Positions 8,097-16,940 of a stretch of DNA of 31,110 bases are shown in pieces. The stretch's first letter is position 1. Every line of letters begins with the position of its first letter. The position numbers and the translations under genes are program-made. The notes under the pieces were generated by a model. That model had not been told where the DNA came from. It did no database searches and saw only the letters and a program-made list of their open reading frames with translations. The stretch comes from Candidatus Parcubacteria bacterium (GTDB lineage Bacteria > Patescibacteriota > Minisyncoccia > Minisyncoccales > Staskawiczbacteraceae). The DNA lies in the NCBI GenBank assembly GCA_019658985.1, contig JAIFWS010000001.1, forward strand, positions 1-31,110, written 5' to 3'.

Positions 8097-8837
8097 TTAT
8101 AATGATTCCCAAATAAAATTAAATAATTGCTGCTGCGTGGCAAACAAAGCCTCGTCCTCGATGATCAGGGCCAAGGGCTGTTTTGATTTAGTCGCGGAAA
8201 CCATGGCCACTTTGCCAGGGTAGATTAAAATGTAGGTCGGTGAACTTTTTTTGACACTCAAGGATTTTTTTTCTGCTAATTCCGCCACCGATCCCTTGTG
8301 GCCAATACCGATTGATTTGATACGGATTTTTCTTTTGATGCGTTGTTTTGTAAAATCGGGAAAAGCTTTGTAAATGTATTCGCGGATGGCTTCGGAAGAA
8401 AAAACGGAATAGTTTTTTTCTTTCGAGGATTCTGTTATTTCTAGCACATCAGATAAGACCGCCTTCAATCCCGCAAAACCTTCATAGTATTTCACCACCG
8501 GTTTATCAGGAGATTTATTAAAGAGCGATGTAAGTTCCGGAATGGCATCCGTCAACTCTTTTTTAACAGATTCAAGATTTTCTATTTTCTGCGCCAGTGT
8601 TTTCTGCAGGGCGGCCGGATTTTCGGCAACAAAAAATTGTTTAGTATCTTTGTGATAGTAACTAACCAAACCGCCTTCTTTTAAAGACTTTAAAATATCA
8701 TAGGTAGTGCCGCGGTTTATCTTACTAAAAGAAGCCAGAGTACGGACCGAAGAAGGGCCCTGTTCCAGCAGGACAAGGTAAATTTTTATTTCCTTGTCCG
8801 AGAAACCCAATTGTTTTAGTATCGGAATAACTTCCAT
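8097..8837 (-). CDS. TrmB family transcriptional regulator
   Basis: LKQLGFSDKEIKIYLVLL...SKINRGTTYDILKSL wHTH and a PLD-like C-terminal region. The likely start is ATG 8837, just below a sigma70 promoter. Confidence 0.9.
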   Translation of the reverse strand: MEVIPILKQLGFSDKEIKIYLVLLEQGPSSVRTLASFSKINRGTTYDILKSLKEGGLVSYYHKDTKQFFVAENPAALQKTLAQKIENLESVKKELTDAIPELTSLFNKSPDKPVVKYYEGFAGLKAVLSDVLEITESSKEKNYSVFSSEAIREYIYKAFPDFTKQRIKRKIRIKSIGIGHKGSVAELAEKKSLSVKKSSPTYILIYPGKVAMVSATKSKQPLALIIEDEALFATQQQLFNFIWESL

Positions 8838-8844
8838 ATCAATC

Positions 8845-8872
8845 ATTATAGTTTATGTGCAGCATCTGTCAA
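8845..8872 (-). promoter_or_regulatory. Sigma70 promoter of the trmB-glmS operon
   Basis: Minus strand TTGACA (8872-8867), 16 nt, TATAAT (8850-8845). Confidence 0.75.
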
Positions 8873-8910: not shown

Positions 8911-8940
8911 AATAAAAAATCCCTTCTTTACAAAGGGATT
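8911..8940 (-). terminator. Intrinsic terminator of array 1
   Basis: Minus strand AATCCCTT-TGTAAAG-AAGGGATT-TTTTATT, 15 nt beyond the last repeat. Confidence 0.75.
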
Positions 8941-8954
8941 ATTGAAGCCTTAAC

Positions 8955-10586
8955 GACGGACTACTCCGCCCCTCGGTTCAAGATGAGGCGCTATGCACCA
9001 CCATGCCGGACGTTGTAATAATGACGGAATACTCCGCCCATCGCGCAGACTAACTAAAGAGCGGGACACCTGAGCAAACTAAACCGAAGGTAGGCAGATT
9101 AATGGCGGATAACTCCGCCCATCGCATCGTGACGCGATACTAGACGATACCGTGCGGAAGCATGAGTATCCTTAAAGACGGCGCACGCCGTCGGACAGCG
9201 GGACACACCGACAGCGGAGAGAGTCGTACAAAACCTAGCTCAGCTCTGTTGTCATGGCGGCATACACCACCCACGACTAGGCAAAAGAGCGCTTTACCAG
9301 ACATTGCCACACGACACGAAAGCTCATCGACAGCGGAGTACTCCGCTCATCCACTATACTGGCACTAGGACTGGCTTCACCTCACAAGACCGTGACTTCA
9401 TAGCGGAATACTCCGCTCGCTCACTATACCGGCGCTAGAACTGACTTTACCTCGCAAGGCCATAACTACTCCGCCAGGCGCCAGGCAACAGTAGGCTCGA
9501 CATTACGTGAGCAGACCACAGGATAACCATTCCCTTGACGGTTTACACCGCCCCGGAACTAGCATTACCTCACTCCGCCTAGCTTAGCTCGACGGATGCA
9601 CAGGAGAATTCATGGCAGAGTACTCTGCCGGGCGTGAAGCGCGGGAGAAGATTGCGGCACCGTGACAGACTTAACCAAGATTTATGGCGGAGTACTCCGC
9701 CCAATACCTGACCAAGCCCGATCTTGCTAGACCTGGCCTTGCCAAATAATAGCGGCGTACGCCGCCCGTAACTTAGAGACGCGTGAGGTCGCAAAGCGAC
9801 AGTTGACTACACGGGACGATACCGCAGCCAATGCATGGCGGAATACTCCGCCCCGAACAAGAACATAGCGGATCGCAGTAAACCATGCCGATTCACAGCT
9901 TGCTCTTGCTTTCATGGCGGCGTACGCCGCCCTTCAAACTAAGTTACCATGAGCTAGGGTACCTTGCCTAATCGCGGCGGATTACTCCGCCCGGCAAAAC
10001 TAACGTGCAGTTGGCTACTCCACGTTACAAGAATACCACGACGGCATACGCCGCCAGAAAAGATACCTGGCTTGACTCCGCGCCACTAAACCTAACCTAA
10101 TCATGACGGAATACTCCGCCCGATACTGTGGCTTAACCCACTGCACCATAATGAGGTAAACCCCATTAATGGCGGAGTACTCCGCCCGACAATCACAATG
10201 TACGGTTGACTGCCATGTGTCGCCAGATAGGTAACGACGGAATACTCCGCCGCGCATGTCGGGTTACGCCACGATACGTTGGCGCACACCGCCTTGAATT
10301 GCATAACGGAATACTCCGCTCAGAAGCCGGGTAGACTCCGCCTTAGGAAGCTTAGCTCCACCCCACCAAATATAACGACGACATACGCCGCCGTGCATGC
10401 AGCACTAAGCTGGATCACACGCCATCGGACCTTGCCATTAACGGCGGATCACTCCACCCGCTAGCTAGCTCCAAGCTACTGCGCGTTGCCTAACTAAATA
10501 TCGACAGCGGATTACTCCGCTCTTCACTGAACAAACACGCAACTAAGACGTAGCCCGCAACGGGCCGCCTTAAGTTATAGCACTTG
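8955..10586 (-). CRISPR. Array 1: non-canonical CRISPR-like hairpin-repeat array with 5-nt-periodic spacers (22 full repeats plus 1 half)
   Basis: 16-nt cores (+ strand consensus G(G/A)CGGA-NTA-CTCCGCC) at 8955, 9023, 9104, 9177, 9256, 9332, 9402, (half 9468), 9537, 9614, 9686, 9751, 9837, 9916, 9976, 10040, 10105, 10171, 10236, 10305, 10377, 10443 and 10506. Spacers are distinct, with a periodic first unit to ~10586. Promoter and terminator give minus-strand orientation. Confidence 0.85.
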
Positions 10587-10598
10587 CATATTCCAAAT

Positions 10599-10627
10599 AA
10601 TATAACTTAAGGCGATTTCTTAATCAA
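10599..10627 (-). promoter_or_regulatory. Sigma70-like promoter of array 1
   Basis: Minus strand TTGATT (10627-10622), 17 nt, TATATT (10604-10599), overlapped by inverted repeats. Confidence 0.65.
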
Positions 10628-10638
10628 ATAAGAAATCT

Positions 10639-10678
10639 AATAAAAATCACGGAGCCGAAGACATTGCTGTACTTCGGC
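10639..10678 (-). terminator. Intrinsic terminator of the DinG gene
   Basis: Minus strand GCCGAAG-TACAGCAATGT-CTTCGGC then TCCGTGATTTTTATT. Confidence 0.65.
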
Positions 10679-10707
10679 GCCGCGATCATTTGTCTACCCA
10701 GGCCTGC

Positions 10708-12648
10708 TCAGTCGACGAGCAGATCCTCGGCCTCCCCGAGACACTCTTCCAGATCCCGGTCGCCGATGTAGACGCCGTGGGCCTGCAACTCCGGCGGCAG
10801 GTTGTGGAAAACGAGTTCCCGGAACCCTTCGGACATCAGCAGAGACACACCCTTGCAATCCTTGCTTCGGATGTTACGGCCGAGAGCCTGGAGAGTCTGC
10901 AGGACAACGCGCGCCCTCGTCCGAACCCAAGCCCCCTTTCCATAGCGCTGTTGTTCGAATTGCGCAACCGCACTCTCCGGATCGGGATACCCCGGGCGCA
11001 GGAGCCACAGCGCACCAGCTAGACCGTCCGGCAAATCCAAGCCCGTGCCGTAGTGCGCCATGCACCCGATCAGCACTTGGCCCTGCCCGTCCTTGAAGAG
11101 TCGCGCGGCCTCCTTAGCCGGCATGTGACCGTTATAGGTCACGACTTCCAGACCCGCTTGTTCACAGAACGCGATACACTGTTCACGTTCTTTGTTCGAC
11201 ACCAGGAGCACGAGGCTACGGATGTCTTGCTCAGCCAGGCGTGCGCAGCCATTGGCGATGGCTCGCAACGTTCTCCGTTTTTTCTTCCCTGACATGTCCT
11301 GCTTGCGCGAGAGATCGTCCACGTCGCAAGGCACCATGATGCGACGGTTGGTCGCCGGGAATGGCGACGGAGCCGAGTGCATCTGCAGGCGCAGACCCGT
11401 TTCGTAGCGGAAGTGGTCGGCGTTTTGGCCGATCGTGGCCGAGAAGCAGAGGGTGGTGGGAGGAGCCAGCCTCTTGATGATCAGGCCAGCCACGTAATGG
11501 CAGTGGAGCCTGAGCAGATACTCGACTCTTTCCCTTCCCTTCTTGATCTGGAAGAACGAACAGGTGTAGTTGAGCGGCCGACGGATGACTTCGTCGTCAT
11601 CGTTCTTCACCGGGATGCCAAACCTCATCGTATGGCCATATCGCCGGAGATCCCGCGTCAGGCGTTCCAGATCCCTGACAGCACGGAAGTCGGTTGGCAT
11701 TTTGAGATGCCCCGCCTCGATCGCTGCCCGTCTTCTCTCGCCCTCAATGATACCGGGTTCGATTTCATCGAGGATTTCTAGTAGCTTCTCAATCTGGTCA
11801 CCCTCGAGCAGATACTCCCGATCGGGTTGCCGATCCTCGCTGTGGGCAATCTCATTCATTGCTTCCAAGAAACGCCTCAGGATCGGCGCTTCCGGTGCGT
11901 GAATGCGTTCGAGAAGGGCGATCGCCTGGCTGACGTGGTAGTTACTGATCGTGTAACTCAACGTGTAGCGGATGACATCCGGCCACTGGTGAGCTTCGTC
12001 AACGATCAGCACTGGCACGCGGCCGTAGGCGGTCTGATACACGTCGCCATCCTGCTTGTTGCCAAACAGCATGATGTACGTGTAGGCGGACATGGTCATG
12101 ACGACGATGCCGCCACCTTTCTTGGCTTCGTAGGTCTGTTGGTAGTACGGACAAGGAACCGCGGACGGATCCTTGACTTGGCCGGTCTTCTGATCAACGT
12201 AGTGCGGACAGTTCTTGTGGAACATGTACGGCACTTCGTCAACGCGCGGCACATCCGGATTGGCGGCCAGCACGGGCAACTCGTGCCGCTGGACCGGGTT
12301 TTTCGGCTCTTCCTCGAAGCCCTCGTGGGCCCAAGGACAGACGTGGTCATGTTGACCGAAGACCACCCGCACATCGGGATGCTCTTCCTTGATCTGCGCG
12401 ACCACTGCCCGGGACGGCGCGATCCACACAACCGTCTCGCCCGGTTCCAGTTTGCTCAGGGCATACGAGGCGGCAGCATATTCCAGCGCCGTCTTGCCCG
12501 TCCCCGTTGGAAGCTGCTGAAGCCACTTCCCCTCCGCCAACGCCCGCATCGCATCCCGTTGAATGGGACGCGGAACAGTGATTTTGTCGGTGAGGGGGAA
12601 ATGGGACAATAGCCCCGGCGTGTCGAACTTCAATCTGTCCGTCGGCAT
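10708..12648 (-). CDS. DinG/XPD-family SF2 helicase (array-embedded)
   Basis: Q motif RPIQ, motif I PTGTGKT, motif II VDEAH, motif III FSAT, motif V GTGLDLP, motif VI QALGRNIRSKDCKG. Cys motifs CPW, CPHY and CPYY lie in the Fe-S region. SD GGAGGAG. Confidence 0.93.
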   Translation of the reverse strand: MPTDRLKFDTPGLLSHFPLTDKITVPRPIQRDAMRALAEGKWLQQLPTGTGKTALEYAAASYALSKLEPGETVVWIAPSRAVVAQIKEEHPDVRVVFGQHDHVCPWAHEGFEEEPKNPVQRHELPVLAANPDVPRVDEVPYMFHKNCPHYVDQKTGQVKDPSAVPCPYYQQTYEAKKGGGIVVMTMSAYTYIMLFGNKQDGDVYQTAYGRVPVLIVDEAHQWPDVIRYTLSYTISNYHVSQAIALLERIHAPEAPILRRFLEAMNEIAHSEDRQPDREYLLEGDQIEKLLEILDEIEPGIIEGERRRAAIEAGHLKMPTDFRAVRDLERLTRDLRRYGHTMRFGIPVKNDDDEVIRRPLNYTCSFFQIKKGRERVEYLLRLHCHYVAGLIIKRLAPPTTLCFSATIGQNADHFRYETGLRLQMHSAPSPFPATNRRIMVPCDVDDLSRKQDMSGKKKRRTLRAIANGCARLAEQDIRSLVLLVSNKEREQCIAFCEQAGLEVVTYNGHMPAKEAARLFKDGQGQVLIGCMAHYGTGLDLPDGLAGALWLLRPGYPDPESAVAQFEQQRYGKGAWVRTRARVVLQTLQALGRNIRSKDCKGVSLLMSEGFRELVFHNLPPELQAHGVYIGDRDLEECLGEAEDLLVD

Positions 12649-12766
12649 ACACTCCTCCCGCTAATAGAGTGGTTGGCTGTCTCCGTTGATTCGAGGATGT
12701 CCGTGCTAATTATCAAAGGTCTTCATCGCTGGACTCGCCCTAGGGCAGGTCTAACGAAGCGCGCTT

Positions 12767-12795
12767 AATTTAACATCAAAAATATCCTTTGTCAA
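12767..12795 (-). promoter_or_regulatory. Sigma70 promoter of the DinG gene
   Basis: Minus strand TTGACA (12795-12790), 17 nt, TAAATT (12772-12767). Confidence 0.65.
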
Positions 12796-12832
12796 TTGAT
12801 TATTATTGTTATAAAAATCCCTGTTTTATACA

Positions 12833-12860
12833 AACAAAAAGACAGCCTGTAAGAGCTGTC
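12833..12860 (-). terminator. Intrinsic terminator of array 2a
   Basis: Minus strand GACAGC-TCTTACAG-GCTGTC-TTTTTGTTT. Confidence 0.75.
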
Positions 12861-12870
12861 TAGAATCAAT

Positions 12871-13779
12871 GACGGAATACTCCGCCCTAAGTGCGGGTGC
12901 GACTTTCCAGGCCGTAGAGGAGGCCGCGGCGACTAACTCTGCCCGATAATAACGGTGTACACCGTCCACAGCGGCAAGGCGCGCTAGCGGGATTCACGAA
13001 ACTCTGCGCTGAGTAATAGCGGATTACTCCGCCCAAAAGGACGTGGCGTGATACGATAAGGGACCACACCCTGGCAAGCCCAATCGATGGCGGAATACTC
13101 CGCCCGATACACTAACTTGGCACGCCCTACTTAACCCAACCTTGGCAAAGATCCATGGCAGAATACTCTGCCGACTGCTCCAGGCCGCTTTGGCGGACCA
13201 GACGCCACGATGCTTTACCCCGGTCTCATCAGCATGACGATCTACATCGCCGCTAACCCGAGTTCTAAGCTGGTTGACGTTACTCTACCGAGCCTCAATC
13301 ATGGCGGCTACGCCGCCCGGCACCAAGGGTTGCCGTACGGCACTTAACTGCACGTAGTATTCATGGCGGAATACTCCACCGGGCAAGTAGACGTGGAAGA
13401 TATTACGACACCGTACGTCAAATCATGGCGGTCGACGCCGCCCGGTACTCGATCCTGCGTTAGCTGACATTGCTCTGGCATGAATATTGGCGAACTACTT
13501 CGCCGGATAGCGCTGAGTAGGAAATCCTGGAGTACTACACGTTACAGCACGCCACGACGTCTAACGACGGAATACTCCGCCCCTAAACCTACTAAGAAGG
13601 AGGGAGCTACGCCATACTAGGTAACGGCGACGTACATCGCCCGAGAGGTGGCTCAGCAATGCCTTAAGATGCTTTACTCAACCCCAAGAATCATGACGGA
13701 CTACTCCGTCCGCAAGTGTACTTAATCCTGGTGGACTAAACCGTAGCTAAGGGAAATGTCAAAGAACCTATCCAATGAA
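12871..13779 (-). CRISPR. Array 2a: same non-canonical hairpin/pentamer array (13 repeats)
   Basis: Cores at 12871, 12951, 13018, 13089, 13157, 13236, 13303, 13365, 13427, 13489, 13566, 13626 and 13695. The first unit (13715-13779) is also periodic. Confidence 0.85.
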
Positions 13780-13784
13780 TTCCC

Positions 13785-13813
13785 AATGTAACACAAAACC
13801 TCCTACAAATCAA
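13785..13813 (-). promoter_or_regulatory. Sigma70-like promoter of array 2a
   Basis: Minus strand TTGATT (13813-13808), 17 nt, TACATT (13790-13785). Same -35 hexamer as the array 1 promoter. Confidence 0.65.
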
Positions 13814-13820
13814 TTTCGCC

Positions 13821-13854
13821 AAAATAAAAAAGGACAGCGTTTGACGACTGTCCT
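13821..13854 (-). terminator. Intrinsic terminator of array 2b
   Basis: Minus strand AGGACAG-TCGTCAAACG-CTGTCCT-TTTTTATTTT. Confidence 0.75.
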
Positions 13855-13867
13855 ATGAACTTGTAAT

Positions 13868-14712
13868 AGCGGCTATGCCGCCCTTTGAGATAAGCTGCTT
13901 TAGTTTACCCAGCTGCATCATACCCAATAATGACGGATTACTCCGCCCGTAACGCCGAACCGTCCTACCTGACGCTACTCAAGAGAAATGACTAATGACG
14001 GATTACTCCGCCCATCGAAGAGCAGGATACGACAGCTGGCAGAACCCCACCATACGTTATCAATGACGGATTACTCCGCCCTGCACCGGGACTAATTACG
14101 CAGCACGATACGCCACGATGGCACTTGCCTAACAGCGGCGTACGCCGCCCAAGACCGGACACGAGGCTTGCTTAACTGTAGTAAGCTTTACCTAACCGCA
14201 GCAGGTCGATGACGGTCTACGCCGCCGGTAAGGTAAGTCGGTGGTGGTGCGCGAAGCTTCACTAGCGCGCAACCTGACTCAACTTTATCATAACAGCGGA
14301 CTACTCCGCCCTCTACAATGGCTTACTTACGATGAGGTGAACTACGCTTTACTAAAACTTCATGGCGGACTACTCCGCCCAAAGATGTGCGCAACAGCGA
14401 CACGCTCGGGCTCGCTGCGCCATGGTAAATTCATCGATGGCGGACTACTCCGCCCGAAAACTTGCTGAGGGCGGGTGCGCCTAACTCAACACAACACCAC
14501 CGAATCGTTGGCGAAATACTCCGCCGGACAAGCTGGTATTCCGCGATTTACTGCACGGAACGTTGCAGAGCTTGAGCACCGTAATGGCGGACTACTCCGC
14601 CCCGTACGAATAACTACTGAATGGAACTATGCCCTGGCTAAAACCATGACGGTTTACACCGCCCGGTAACCTGCAACGGAGAAGTCAACTCTACGTAACC
14701 AAGCCGAATCAT
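13868..14712 (-). CRISPR. Array 2b: same non-canonical hairpin/pentamer array (12 repeats)
   Basis: Cores at 13868, 13932, 13997, 14065, 14134, 14211, 14295, 14364, 14439, 14510, 14586 and 14648, with periodic sequence continuing to ~14712. Confidence 0.85.
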
Positions 14713-14717
14713 CAGGC

Positions 14718-14766
14718 AAAAAAAATCGCAGAACCAGCACACATTCCTGTGTGTCCGGCCCTGCGA
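14718..14766 (-). terminator. Long hairpin plus U8 (terminator or attenuator) between the CSD-protein gene and array 2b
   Basis: Minus strand TCGCAG-GGCCGG-A-CACAC-AGGAAT-GTGTG-CTGGTT-CTGCGA-TTTTTTTT, about 17 bp including G.U pairs. Confidence 0.65.
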
Positions 14767-14806
14767 CCCTAACGACGGTTGAACCCGCCTTTTGTTCGCC
14801 GAAACA

Positions 14807-15733
14807 TCACGACACCGGCTCGACCCCGAAGGCATCGAGCGTGTACTTGGGCTTGCGGCCCGGACGGTATTCGGTCTTGGGGTTGCGTTGAGCCTTGGCC
14901 AGGTTCGAGAACCTGACCCGTTGACCTTGGCCCAGGTAGCGCAGCCGGGGGCTCGGCGGCGCCTCCGTCCAGTGCACCCGCGCCCAGCCCTGAGCGGTGA
15001 CGATCTTGCCCATGTTGCGGGCATCGTGCCAGCTCTCCACCATCCCTTCGTTGCGCCGGAGCCCGTCGATACTCGGCTCAGGCGGAAAGAGGGTGTCGGG
15101 GGCGGGAATCAGCGGCAGTCCCTCGGGAGCGAGATTCACCAGAACCGTTCCCAGGTGCTTGTGTTTGCCGACGCCCGGAAAACAGAGTCTGCCCTTGTAC
15201 CCGGAACAGGCCAGCAGGTCCTGTCGGCGCTGCACCGTCAGGAAGAACTGCCTACCCTGGCTGATGACGGCCACCTCCCACACGTGCACATGGCCGGTCA
15301 GCCTTCCTGCCAGCCGCACGTACTGGCCGAGGCACAGCGTGTTAGCCGGATAGGAGGTCTTGTTGAGGAGAGGACCATCGTAGGCGAAGAGATCCAGGCC
15401 GAAGCGGGATCCGAAGACGACGCCCTCGGAGTCCTTGTCGCGACTCGACAAGAAATCGAAGCGCCGCTTCTGCTTGGCGTGGGCCTCTTCGTAGCCCTCC
15501 TCATTCAATTGGGGGATGTCATCCGGGTCACGGTTCCAGTCCTTCTGGGGCAGGAAGTTATCATCTCCCGTCCGGAAGAACGCGACCGTCCAGTCGGCGT
15601 CGTCGGCCACCTCGGCCAGGATCGTCACCGATCCGGAAGCCAAGTCTCCGACGTAGCCGTCTGCTTCGGGCGCCACGAGGTCTTTTTCGTGATAGACCTC
15701 CACAGCAACGCCCGGGATCTGGTAAACGCTCAT
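14807..15733 (-). CDS. Hypothetical protein with a C-terminal cold-shock-like (OB-fold) domain
   Basis: Residues ~229-308 (EGMVESWHDARNMGKIVTAQGWARVHW...YLGQGQRVRF) align by eye with CspA (GxVKWFNxxKGFGFI...VFVHF...LxEGQxVxF). SD AAGGA. The N-terminal 220 aa are not recognised. Confidence 0.7.
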   Translation of the reverse strand: MSVYQIPGVAVEVYHEKDLVAPEADGYVGDLASGSVTILAEVADDADWTVAFFRTGDDNFLPQKDWNRDPDDIPQLNEEGYEEAHAKQKRRFDFLSSRDKDSEGVVFGSRFGLDLFAYDGPLLNKTSYPANTLCLGQYVRLAGRLTGHVHVWEVAVISQGRQFFLTVQRRQDLLACSGYKGRLCFPGVGKHKHLGTVLVNLAPEGLPLIPAPDTLFPPEPSIDGLRRNEGMVESWHDARNMGKIVTAQGWARVHWTEAPPSPRLRYLGQGQRVRFSNLAKAQRNPKTEYRPGRKPKYTLDAFGVEPVS

Positions 15734-15825
15734 TGGCGAAACCGTCCTTTCTTTTCAAGGTGCACTTATTGCCCGCCGACATAGCGAGCTTCAGATAGAT
15801 TGCTCCTATCATATAAATTATCACT

Positions 15826-15869
15826 TGTCAATTAATTGCGTTGACAGACGGAACATAGTATGTTAGCCT
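15826..15869. promoter_or_regulatory. Back-to-back divergent promoters for the CSD-protein and Cas7-like genes
   Basis: Plus strand TTGACA (15841-15846), 17 nt, TAGCCT (15864-15869) with an extended TG. Minus strand TTGACA (15831-15826) has only a weak -10. Confidence 0.55.
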
Positions 15870-15941
15870 CAAAACCAGTTTCAGGATGAATGTCTGGCGA
15901 CGCCAGCGAATCCTGAATAGCACCTAGCACCGGGAGAACCT

Positions 15942-16877
15942 ATGTCCGAGCCTGCTGTGTTGGAACTGCCGGCGCTCGACGAGAGCGCTATCGCCACCAT
16001 GTACGAAAGCCCCATCATGACCACGCGTCGGGTGGCGGTGTTCAAGTTCTGCCTCAAGGGCCGCAAGCCCTTGCTCTGCGACCGCATGAGTGGGGGGGCG
16101 TTGGACTCCATCTTCACGGGCCAGAAGCTGGAGATCGCGCCCGACATGCGGATCGAGGAGCGGGCCTGGATGAAGGCCTATGGGCGCAGCTACGAAAAGG
16201 ACGTACCGGTCGGCCCCGCCGTCATCCCCGTCGAGAACCTCTCGGCGGCCCTGGTCGCCGCCGGCTGCGCGATCCAGTACGGCAGCGGCAAAACGGAGAA
16301 GGTCACCTTCTCCACGAAGAACACTTCGTTCTTCGGCATGATCGAGTTCCGCGACGAGCACTTCACCATCTTCGGCCCGGACGGGAAACCGGCCGAGTGG
16401 GTGGTGGACAAGCGGCGCGGCGCGGCCAACAACAACAATGGCAGCGCGGTCTGCATCGTCCGCCCCAAGTGGCCGCGATGGTGCATCGCCGGCTACCTGG
16501 ACCTAAACCTGGACTCCGGCCTCAGTCCCGACAAGGCGCTGGACCTCTTCACCGAGGCGGGCAAGAACCACGGCCTGTGCAGCGCCAGGCCGGGCAACAA
16601 AATGACGTTCGGCATGTACGACGTCACCACGTTCGAGTGGGTGGGGGGCGTGGACCCCAAAACCATCACCGTCAGCGTGGGCAGCAGCACGACGGCGGCC
16701 AAGCCCAAGCGCGCCACCAGCCGCAAAAAGAAGGTTGCCGACGAAGCGCCCGCGCCGGACGCCACTTCGGAGACGCCGGCGGACGCGACGCTCGACGGCC
16801 AAGCCGCGGCCGAGACGCTGGGGCCCGGCACGCCGTTGGGCAACGGCGAAGCGCCCGCCGCCGAAACCCCGCAGTAA
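15942..16877 (+). CDS. Cas7-like RAMP-superfamily protein (candidate guide-binding backbone subunit)
   Basis: RAMP-like motifs: FKFCLKGRKPLL (beta1), AVIPVENLSAALVAAG (cf. Csm3/Cmr4 xIPGSSLKG), VVDKRR...IVRPKWPRW (thumb region) and AGKNHGLCSARPGNKMTFGMYDV (G-rich loop, cf. GLGxxRxxGxGxF). ~70-aa low-complexity tail. SD GGAG. Confidence 0.72.
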   Translation: MSEPAVLELPALDESAIATMYESPIMTTRRVAVFKFCLKGRKPLLCDRMSGGALDSIFTGQKLEIAPDMRIEERAWMKAYGRSYEKDVPVGPAVIPVENLSAALVAAGCAIQYGSGKTEKVTFSTKNTSFFGMIEFRDEHFTIFGPDGKPAEWVVDKRRGAANNNNGSAVCIVRPKWPRWCIAGYLDLNLDSGLSPDKALDLFTEAGKNHGLCSARPGNKMTFGMYDVTTFEWVGGVDPKTITVSVGSSTTAAKPKRATSRKKKVADEAPAPDATSETPADATLDGQAAAETLGPGTPLGNGEAPAAETPQ

Positions 16878-16902
16878 CAACTGATGGGACCAACAACGCA
16901 AT

Positions 16903-16940
16903 GCCGCCAAGAGATTCTATCTCCTGGCGGCTCTTTATTT
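16903..16940 (+). terminator. Terminator after the Cas7-like gene
   Basis: GCCGCCA-AGAGAT-TCT-ATCTC-C-TGGCGGC followed by TCTTTATTT. Confidence 0.7.

What the first reader, a model, noticed from the sequence alone, without database searches (positions are those of the whole stretch)
10708..12648. DinG/XPD helicase inserted between arrays as its own transcription unit
Seen: all SF2 motifs are intact, with its own promoter (12767-12795), SD and terminator, and arrays directly on both sides. Only three Cys motifs (CPW, CPHY, CPYY) are visible in the Fe-S region, versus four ligands in XPD/DinG. Established: CasDinG is the 5'-3' helicase effector of type IV-A CRISPR. Inference: DinG was recruited, convergently or ancestrally, as the effector of this pentamer-guide system. 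The incomplete ligand set may indicate a lost or altered cluster.
Basis: partly seen in the sequence, partly recalled or inferred. Interest (0 to 1): 0.76.

Follow-up and report, generated by a model that had tools for sequence, protein, structure and literature searches.

The report
XPD-like helicase of a VIPR system
This gene encodes an XPD/DinG-type DNA helicase that always travels with a Cas7-like guide-RNA protein and its guide-RNA arrays (a VIPR system, first described in 2026), so it is probably that system's motor subunit, recruited independently of the DinG helicase of type IV CRISPR.

Summary
Window 10708-12648 (minus) is an intact 646-aa SF2 helicase with all motifs, a sigma-70-like promoter, a Shine-Dalgarno site and a hairpin-U terminator. 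It sits between hairpin-repeat arrays on the same strand.

The arrays are not CRISPR. They are about 45 vrRNA genes, each with 9-10 pentamers (g)GY/NN and a 3' hairpin. A nearby stand-alone Cas7-like protein matches the published definition of Vipr (bioRxiv 10.64898/2026.04.26.720920).

The helicase belongs to a small, well-separated XPD/Rad3/DinG clade. All 14 relatives' loci with enough flanking DNA carry a Vipr homologue next to the helicase. Helicase and Vipr distances covary (Mantel r 0.86). This 0.7-Mb genome has no other XPD/DinG gene.

I found no special kinship to CasDinG/Csf4, so recruitment looks convergent. The "missing" fourth Fe-S ligand is His144. Across 72 family representatives this ligand is Cys141, Cys144 or His144, never absent, so the cluster is probably altered rather than lost.

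The VIPR preprint already says some types encode helicases. This is therefore a new, uncharacterised member of a known kind. The mechanism is inferred.

The parts
10708..12648 (-). XPD/Rad3/DinG-family SF2 helicase gene (646 aa), putative VIPR accessory (Vap-type) helicase
   Evidence: ORF and translation; Pfam; AF2 model pLDDT 88.8; Foldseek full-length matches to DinG 6fwr (TM 0.68), XPD and CasDinG
12490..12504 (-). Codons of motif I / Walker A (G49-T53, GTGKT)
   Evidence: Invariant in 24-sequence family alignment; coordinates by arithmetic from the start codon
11989..12000 (-). Codons of motif II, DEAH (D217-H220)
   Evidence: D217, E218 and H220 invariant
12151..12339 (-). Fe-S domain ligand region: C104 (12337-12339), H144 (12217-12219), C147 (12208-12210), C166 (12151-12153)
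   Evidence: C104, C147 and C166 are present in 72 of 72 family representatives. The fourth ligand is C141 (45), C144 (9) or H144 (18), mutually exclusive. The three Cys align with TaXPD cysteines C92, C128 and C164, which I recall as cluster ligands
12767..12795 (-). Sigma-70-like promoter of the helicase gene (TTGACA-17-TAAATT, TG extended)
   Evidence: 10 of 12 matches; prediction only
12652..12659 (-). Shine-Dalgarno GGGAGGAG, 3 nt upstream of the ATG
   Evidence: sequence read
10639..10688 (-). Intrinsic-terminator-like hairpin plus UUUUAUU after the helicase stop codon
   Evidence: fold: -28.3 kcal/mol, z -3.0; sequence
8918..10627 (-). vrRNA array 1 (about 20 units, 8947-10525) with promoter-like site 10627-10599 and terminator 8940-8918
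12840..13720 (-). vrRNA array 2a (about 12 units) with terminator 12861-12840
13831..14674 (-). vrRNA array 2b (about 11 units) with terminator 13854-13831
14807..15733 (-). ORF308, conserved third gene of this helicase-VIPR subclade; C-terminal CSD/S1-like segment; function unknown
   Evidence: No Pfam, NCBIfam, PADLOC or PDB hit. Homologues in L018, L020, L022, L023, L034 and L037
15942..16877 (+). vipr: stand-alone Cas7-like RAMP (311 aa; core 1-235, disordered tail 236-311)
   Evidence: AF2 model pLDDT 74.6; Foldseek to Csm3 / Cas7-11, E 5e-7, prob 1.0; homologues beside the helicase in 14 relatives' loci

Best explanation
The gene encodes an ATP-dependent XPD/Rad3/DinG-family DNA helicase that is a dedicated accessory subunit (a 'Vap' in the published terms) of a chromosomal VIPR system. 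That system comprises the Cas7-like Vipr protein (15942-16877), ORF308 and about 45 vrRNA genes in three arrays. Shown here: the gene is intact with all ATPase and helicase motifs; it has the four-domain XPD fold; it belongs to a distinct clade that is always found beside vipr; and it is inherited together with vipr. Inferred: Vipr-vrRNA filaments find foreign double-stranded DNA through the noncontiguous NN code and open an R-loop triplex, as published for type II VIPR. The helicase then loads on the exposed single strand at or next to that structure and translocates 5'-3' using ATP. This would unwind DNA and displace polymerases, so that silencing or replication block extends beyond the bound site without cutting. 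That is how CasDinG is thought to work in type IV-A CRISPR. The Fe-S domain most likely still holds a [4Fe-4S] cluster, bound here by three Cys (104, 147, 166) and His144.
For: Gene and motifs. Fold: AF2 pLDDT 88.8 and pTM 0.86; full-length Foldseek matches to E. coli DinG, archaeal and eukaryotic XPD, and CasDinG. Distinct clade: in 1.84 billion representatives about 50 full-length clusters score E<1e-130, then there is a gap to 1e-53 and 1e-32; the clade has 99% local support in the tree. Linkage: a Vipr homologue lies next to the helicase in L001, L018, L020/L021, L022, L023 and L034-L042. Co-directional vrRNA-like arrays flank the helicase in L016, L017, L019, L020/L021, L022 and L023; L001 and L018 also have units beside it. 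Helicase and Vipr distance matrices give Mantel r 0.86, with 0 of 5000 permutations as high. Patchy spread: 9 of 400 sampled genomes of the phylum, none in the same order. The island has 52-64% GC against 42-48% in the flanks. The genome's only other Helicase_C_2 hit is UvrB. vrRNA signature: Y at distances 5, 10...45 and G at 6, 11...41 from the hairpin in 41 units. Vipr fold: Csm3 / Cas7-11, E 5e-7. No self-targets in the 697-kb genome, which fits foreign targets. [quoted passage not shown] Fe-S ligands.
Against: Nothing here shows physical contact between the helicase and the Vipr RNP, ATPase or unwinding activity, polarity, expression, or any target of the guides. The published, characterised VIPR (type II) silences without a helicase, so the motor is not needed for recognition and its contribution is unknown. 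The R-loop triplex wraps the non-target strand, so it is unclear where a 5'-3' single-strand translocase would load. I could not confirm that the helicase vap of the preprint is this family, because its data tables were not held.
Confidence: 0.62

Rival explanations
1. The helicase serves the guide side, not the target side. It would remove RNA-DNA hybrids or R-loops, or recycle Vipr filaments. Examples are resolving R-loops and hairpins in the densely transcribed arrays that surround it, stripping VIPR complexes from DNA for turnover, or helping vrRNA-RNP assembly. This resembles E. coli DinG, which to my knowledge unwinds R-loops.
For: The gene sits between co-directional, hairpin-rich arrays in the window and in L017, L019, L020, L022 and L023. 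The top structural match is E. coli DinG. Characterised VIPR silences without a helicase.
Against: Minimal loci such as L001, with only about 5 vrRNAs, and L018, where the helicase is next to vipr and most arrays lie elsewhere, still keep the helicase. VIPR types without a helicase also carry arrays.
Confidence: 0.2
2. It is a true relative of CasDinG/Csf4. The helicase module was inherited from, or donated to, type IV CRISPR rather than recruited independently.
For: Among Foldseek hits CasDinG chains have the highest sequence identity (17-18% against 12-16%). Both serve RAMP-based, nuclease-free systems.
Against: The Csf4 equivalog profile TIGR03117 scores 21 bits against a 400-bit cut-off, which is no better than DinG, YoaA or dinG_rel. 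The dedicated PADLOC Csf4 models score at most 24 bits. The one strong PADLOC hit (PDLC01439, 125 bits) is a generic XPD/Rad3 profile that scores a real rad3 protein at 392 bits. The family profile hits XPD at 4.8e-19 and DinG at 1.3e-11, with CasDinG outside the best 60. TM-scores to CasDinG (0.57) are lower than to DinG or XPD (0.63-0.68). The Fe-S ligands are conserved here, whereas to my knowledge CasDinG has a vestigial Fe-S domain.
Confidence: 0.08
3. It is an ordinary DNA-repair helicase (DinG/YoaA/XPD) that happens to lie in the island.
For: It is the only XPD/DinG-type gene in a very reduced genome.
Against: It scores 24-28 bits against cut-offs of 598-680 for the DinG and YoaA equivalogs. 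It was found in only 9 of 400 sampled genomes of the phylum. It is always linked to vipr. It has foreign GC content.
Confidence: 0.03

Closest known systems
VIPR systems (Vipr RAMP + vap + vrRNA; bioRxiv 10.64898/2026.04.26.720920 and 10.64898/2026.04.26.720927), specifically the types said to encode helicases (types III-V; by elimination probably type IV)
   Same: A stand-alone Cas7-like RAMP. Guide RNAs made of about 9-10 pentamers with a fixed G-Y and variable NN, capped by a structured 3' tail. No adaptation genes. An accessory gene that acts on DNA. No self-targeting.
   Different: The readable text gives no family, sequence or function for the helicase vap, so identity with this clade is untested. 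This locus is chromosomal in a 0.7-Mb genome of the phylum where relatives are labelled Patescibacteria, and was not found in IMG/VR. It carries about 45 guides in three separately terminated arrays. The first G of GGY is degenerate. It has a third conserved gene (ORF308).
CasDinG / Csf4 of type IV-A CRISPR-Cas (PDB 8e2w, 7xex, 8rfj, 8s35)
   Same: An XPD/DinG-fold helicase attached to a nuclease-free, RAMP-based RNA-guided DNA-binding complex. The likely role is a 5'-3' motor acting after R-loop formation.
   Different: It is not a family member: the Csf4 profiles are far below cut-off, there are no csf1/2/3 or cas6 genes, and there is no CRISPR array. It keeps three Fe-S cysteines plus a His/Cys ligand. 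By profile it is closer to XPD/Rad3.
Archaeal/eukaryotic XPD (Rad3) and bacterial DinG/YoaA repair helicases (PDB 4a15, 2vsf, 6fwr)
   Same: Four-domain architecture (HD1, Fe-S, Arch, HD2), a DEAH box, and Fe-S cysteines at the positions of TaXPD C92, C128 and C164.
   Different: It does not reach any equivalog or subfamily cut-off. The second ligand has moved and is His in this protein. There is a ~22-residue insertion in the Fe-S domain (residues ~112-135) in its subclade. Its genomic context is a guide-RNA system, not repair.

Membership tests
XPD/Rad3/DinG Fe-S helicase superfamily (SF2) | Conserved SF2 motifs I, II (DEAH), III, V and VI | tested here: met
   Invariant G49/G51/K52/T53, D217/E218/H220, S403/T405/G407, G536/D538 and Q587/G590/R591/R594. 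Pfam DEAD and Helicase_C_2 are above cut-off.
XPD/Rad3/DinG Fe-S helicase superfamily (SF2) | Four-domain fold: two RecA-like domains with Fe-S and Arch insertions in the first | tested here: met
   AF2 model pLDDT 88.8. Foldseek aligns 620-790 columns to DinG, XPD and CasDinG, with TM 0.56-0.68 and E down to 5.5e-25.
XPD/Rad3/DinG Fe-S helicase superfamily (SF2) | Four cysteine ligands of a [4Fe-4S] cluster | tested here: inconclusive
   Three Cys are invariant. The fourth position is His144 here, Cys at the same column in 9 representatives, and Cys141 in 45. No representative lacks all three options. Metal content was not measurable.
XPD/Rad3/DinG Fe-S helicase superfamily (SF2) | 5'-3' DNA unwinding driven by ATP | not testable with these tools
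   Needs biochemistry.
CasDinG / Csf4 (type IV-A CRISPR) | Match to Csf4 family profiles at family level | tested here: not met
   TIGR03117 scores 21 bits against a 400-bit cut-off. PADLOC Csf4_0_IVA scores 23.7 bits. CasDinG is outside the best 60 PDB hits of the family profile.
CasDinG / Csf4 (type IV-A CRISPR) | Encoded with csf1-csf3/cas6 and a CRISPR array | tested here: not met
   No Cas family hit for the neighbouring ORFs. The repeats are 16-nt hairpins with 44-70-nt pentamer-periodic units, not CRISPR repeats.
VIPR system accessory gene (vap), helicase class | Adjacent gene for a minimal stand-alone RAMP (Vipr) | tested here: met
   The 311-aa ORF folds as a Cas7/Csm3-like RAMP. Homologues lie next to helicase homologues in 14 relatives' loci.
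VIPR system accessory gene (vap), helicase class | vrRNAs with tandem pentamers (GGY/NN or related) and a conserved 3' tail | tested here: met
   5-nt periodicity in register with the hairpin over 9 pentamers in 41 units. Compensatory changes in the hairpin.
VIPR system accessory gene (vap), helicase class | Same protein family as the helicase vap listed by the discovery preprint | not testable with these tools
   The text says only 'nucleases or helicases'. The held supplement has no match for helicase, DinG, vap3/4 or type IV.
Housekeeping DinG / YoaA | Equivalog-level profile match | tested here: not met
   NF008729 scores 27.8 bits against 598. NF053712 scores 23.8 bits against 680.

The most novel reading that the evidence does not exclude
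This helicase clade, with ORF308 and very large multi-promoter vrRNA arrays in tiny symbiont-type genomes, is a VIPR type that the seven published types do not cover. It would be a three-gene, motor-driven variant whose XPD-like helicase carries a 3Cys-1His Fe-S cluster and turns static RNA-guided binding into processive interference. That would be a second, independent invention of the type IV-A CRISPR strategy.
Probability: 0.25. Interest if true: 0.7.

Novelty: new member of a known kind. Interest (0 to 1): 0.5.

Why it matters
VIPR was described only in 2026, and only its helicase-free type II has been studied. What the enzyme-bearing types do after target recognition is an open question.

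This locus and its roughly 50 sequence clusters of relatives give a concrete, well-delimited helicase family for answering it. The family has defined catalytic residues, a testable Fe-S ligand switch, and a conserved partner set.

If the motor works as proposed, RAMP-based guide systems would have acquired an XPD/DinG helicase at least twice (type IV-A CRISPR and VIPR). That would point to a general solution for nuclease-free interference. It would also offer a compact programmable motor for silencing over a distance.

The locus also shows that a 0.7-Mb genome spends about 1% of its DNA on this system.

Tried and rejected
The contigs of the closest homologues, such as P0002 at 88% identity, could therefore not be inspected.
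It returned only one true relative (L001) and is not a census.
- The IMG/VR scan with two family-specific peptides found no relative.
- A tree including CasDinG was not possible. The Csf4 family search over 400 Pseudomonadota genomes and 14 control genomes found nothing, and sequences may not be typed in. Profile scores were used instead.
- Complex prediction (helicase + Vipr 1-240) gave no verdict, score 0.00, controls not run. This is not evidence either way.
- The look-up of sequencing runs listed no RNA holder and only one soil DNA run with 5% of the sampled words.
- Sequence searches of PDB with the single helicase, Vipr and the ORF308 profile found nothing significant.
- Rfam, tRNA and TRF scans were empty for the arrays.
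- My first ideas were dropped: REP-like elements, integron attC sites, or an engineered construct (because of modular AT-rich promoters and terminators). Homologous natural loci from many metagenomes share the architecture.
- The self-target search under 0-3-nt skip rules gave only chance-level scores.
- No search for foreign targets was attempted. Exact 18-base gapped patterns in IMG/VR would give about as many chance hits as real ones.
- The IQ-TREE run did not finish, so FastTree was used.
Full report
**1. What is at the coordinates.**
- Window 10708-12648 (minus strand) is a 646-aa ORF with an ATG start.
- Pfam finds DEAD (1e-12), Helicase_C_2 (4.8e-11) and ResIII.
- In an alignment of 24 relatives the diagnostic SF2 residues are invariant: GTGKT 49-53, DEAH 217-220, S403/T405/G407, G536/D538 and Q587/G590/R591/R594.
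- GGGAGGAG lies 3 nt before the ATG.
- After the stop codon a ~16-bp hairpin is followed directly by UUUUAUU (-28.3 kcal/mol, z -3.0).
- Repeat arrays lie 187 nt downstream and 223 nt upstream of the gene.
The transcription unit itself is predicted, not measured.

**2. What surrounds it.**
- The gene lies in an 8-kb island (about 8911-16940) of 52-64% GC inside 42-48% GC flanks that carry housekeeping genes such as gyrB, pheS and glmS.
- The genome is 697 kb in 62 contigs and 97.5% complete. The one named relative-bearing genome (L001) is labelled Patescibacteria.
- On the minus strand the arrays consist of 41 clear units, about 45 with degenerate ones. Each ends in a 16-nt hairpin, GGCGGAGUANUCCGYC, with compensatory variants such as GGCAGA...UCUGCC and GACGGU...ACCGUC.
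- In register with the hairpin, the 45 nt upstream show a pyrimidine at distances 5, 10...45 and G at 6, 11...41, with a weaker G one position further. That is nine pentamers NN-(g)GY.
- Three minus-strand terminators close the three arrays.
- Rfam, tRNA and tandem-repeat scans found nothing.

**3. Identity of the system.**
I read the papers.
- VIPR consists of a minimal stand-alone RAMP (Vipr), an accessory gene (vap) and vrRNAs. The vrRNAs have 9-16 YNNGG pentamers plus a structured 3' tail, and variants such as NNNGG and YNNNG exist.
[quoted passage not shown] Types III and V are the only ones with nucleases (10.64898/2026.04.26.720920).
- Target binding forms an R-loop triplex (10.64898/2026.04.26.720927).
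- I tested the fit independently. The 311-aa ORF at 15942-16877 has no Pfam, NCBIfam, PADLOC or PDB sequence hit.
- Folded with 12 homologues, its model (pLDDT 74.6, core above 85) matches Csm3 and Cas7-11 RAMPs at Foldseek E 5e-7, probability 1.0.
- Together with the pentamer-plus-tail RNAs, this meets the published definition of a VIPR locus.

**4. Is the helicase part of the system?**
- The protein family is small. There are 29 clusters at 90% identity in 5.8 billion proteins.
- Among 1.84 billion 50%-identity representatives, about 50 full-length clusters score E<1e-130. There is then a gap to 1e-53, 1e-32 and a continuum near 1e-25.
- In a FastTree with 16 XPD/Rad3/YoaA-like outgroups, the 72 representatives form one clade with 99% local support.
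- I recovered 8 metagenome loci, one MAG locus and 9 genomes out of 400 sampled from the window's phylum, none from the same order.
- An HMM of the Vipr alignment finds a Vipr homologue within about 5 kb of the helicase in L001, L018, L020/L021, L022, L023, L034, L035, L036, L037, L038, L039, L040, L041 and L042.
- The three loci without a Vipr homologue (L016, L017, L019) end 1-5.5 kb upstream of the helicase, inside arrays.
- Hairpin-tailed arrays co-directional with the helicase flank it in L016, L017, L019, L020/L021, L022 and L023. L001 has vrRNA-like units on both sides, and L018 has units downstream of it plus a larger opposite-strand array beyond ORF308.
- Over 11 loci the pairwise distances of helicase and Vipr correlate (Mantel r 0.86; 0 of 5000 permutations). 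This shows joint inheritance as a module, not contact.
- The genome's only other Helicase_C_2 match is UvrB.

**5. Which helicase family, and its relation to CasDinG.**
- The AF2 model (pLDDT 88.8, pTM 0.86) aligns over its whole length with several helicases:
  - E. coli DinG: TM 0.68.
  - T. acidophilum XPD: TM 0.63-0.65.
  - TFIIH XPD: TM up to 0.67.
  - CasDinG: TM 0.57-0.58.
- The family profile hits PDB sequences of XPD at 4.8e-19, CHL1-type and human XPD at about 1e-18, FANCJ at 2e-15 and E. coli DinG at 1.3e-11. CasDinG is not among the 60 best, of which the last has E 1.5e-5.
- The NCBIfam equivalogs are all far below cut-off and indistinguishable: DinG 27.8 bits, YoaA 23.8, Csf4 21.0.
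- The one strong PADLOC hit is PDLC01439, labelled 'typeIV_DinG', E 9.7e-37. It is misleading. The same model scores a genuine rad3 protein at 392 bits and every generic outgroup at 140-390 bits.
- I conclude that the clade derives from XPD/Rad3-like helicases and was recruited to VIPR independently of CasDinG.
- A formal tree with CasDinG could not be made.

**6. The Fe-S ligands.**
In the profile alignment to T. acidophilum XPD, C104, C147 and C166 pair with cysteines C92, C128 and C164. That these, with C113, are the cluster ligands is from my memory of the structure papers.
- In 72 family representatives those three Cys are invariant.
- The remaining ligand is Cys at column 141 in 45 representatives, Cys at column 144 in 9, and His at column 144 in 18. 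No sequence has none or two of these options.
- On the tree, C141 is ancestral. The subclade with a ~22-residue insertion moved the ligand to column 144, where His and Cys interchange several times.
- The C/H144-x2-C147 spacing resembles the CxxC that I recall for S. acidocaldarius XPD.
- This pattern is what a conserved metal ligand would show. I therefore read the window's protein as a probable 3Cys-1His cluster, altered rather than lost. Only metal analysis can settle it.

**7. Mechanism.**
- Shown: an intact motor of the XPD type, strictly coupled to a Vipr-vrRNA system; no nuclease domain in it; and no self-targets of 41 guides in the host genome (best 14-17 of 20 coded bases, equal to shuffled codes).
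- Inferred: after the Vipr filament has opened an R-loop triplex on foreign DNA, the helicase loads on single-stranded DNA and translocates 5'-3'. This would extend unwinding and evict polymerases, as is thought for CasDinG.
- The main rival is a guide-side or recycling role, meaning R-loop removal at the arrays or stripping of VIPR complexes from DNA.
- ORF308 is conserved only in the subclade that includes the window. It has a CSD/S1-like C-terminus and may bridge or regulate. Its role is open.

**8. Novelty.**
- Helicase-bearing VIPR types are mentioned in one sentence of each of two preprints and are uncharacterised.
- The XPD/DinG identity, the ligand switch, ORF308, the array size and the host group are not in the text I could read.
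- I file this as a new member of a known kind. There is about a one-in-four chance that it is a type outside the published seven.

**9. Limits.**
- One collection scan was wasted on a generic motif.
- The complex prediction gave no verdict.
- No RNA run was listed.
- Family counts come from samples, not censuses.

Noticed in passing
window 14807-15733 (-): ORF308 has no family hit. Its last ~70 residues resemble a cold-shock/S1 OB fold (EGxVESWYxARNMGxIxTxQGxARVHWS...GERVxF). Homologues occur only in the helicase subclade loci L018, L020, L022, L023, L034 and L037, always next to vipr.
   Followed up: partly
window 16647-16877 (+), Vipr residues 236-311: Vipr ends in a disordered basic-then-acidic tail (pLDDT below 50). 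The Viprs of L018, L020 and L022 share it, but minimal loci such as L001 lack it. It is a candidate recruitment tail.
   Followed up: no
PADLOC model PDLC01439 (no coordinates): This model is labelled 'typeIV_DinG, CAS-IV-A; associated', but it scores genuine rad3/XPD and generic YoaA-like proteins at 140-390 bits. A hit to it should not be read as type IV CRISPR.
   Followed up: yes
L023 4083-5015 (-); L034 9494-10129 and 13243-13899; L041 5440-6147 and 6430-7095: The vipr of L023 is split over two reading frames, either a frameshift or an assembly error. L034 and L041 each carry two vipr paralogues beside one helicase.
   Followed up: no
L001 880-1010 and 3060-3480: In this distant relative the vrRNAs use xxxGT pentamers and a longer tail hairpin (GGAGGAGTTA...TAACTCCTCC). 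The locus is minimal: vipr, one vrRNA, the helicase, then about four vrRNAs, followed by a LexA-like gene.
   Followed up: partly
window 10540-10650, 12760-12850, 13745-13860, 15780-15900: Short AT-rich patches with promoter-like and terminator-like elements interrupt the GC-rich island. They have the composition of the host genome rather than of the island genes.
   Followed up: partly
window 8097-8846 (-): A TrmB-family HTH regulator gene abuts the island. It has the strongest sigma-70-like site of the region (8872-8845, 12 of 12 matches). Whether it regulates the island is unknown.
   Followed up: no
G000 contig C62 (L015 1111-3057): The only other Helicase_C_2 match in the genome is UvrB (952 bits), so this reduced genome has no separate DinG/XPD repair helicase.
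   Followed up: yes
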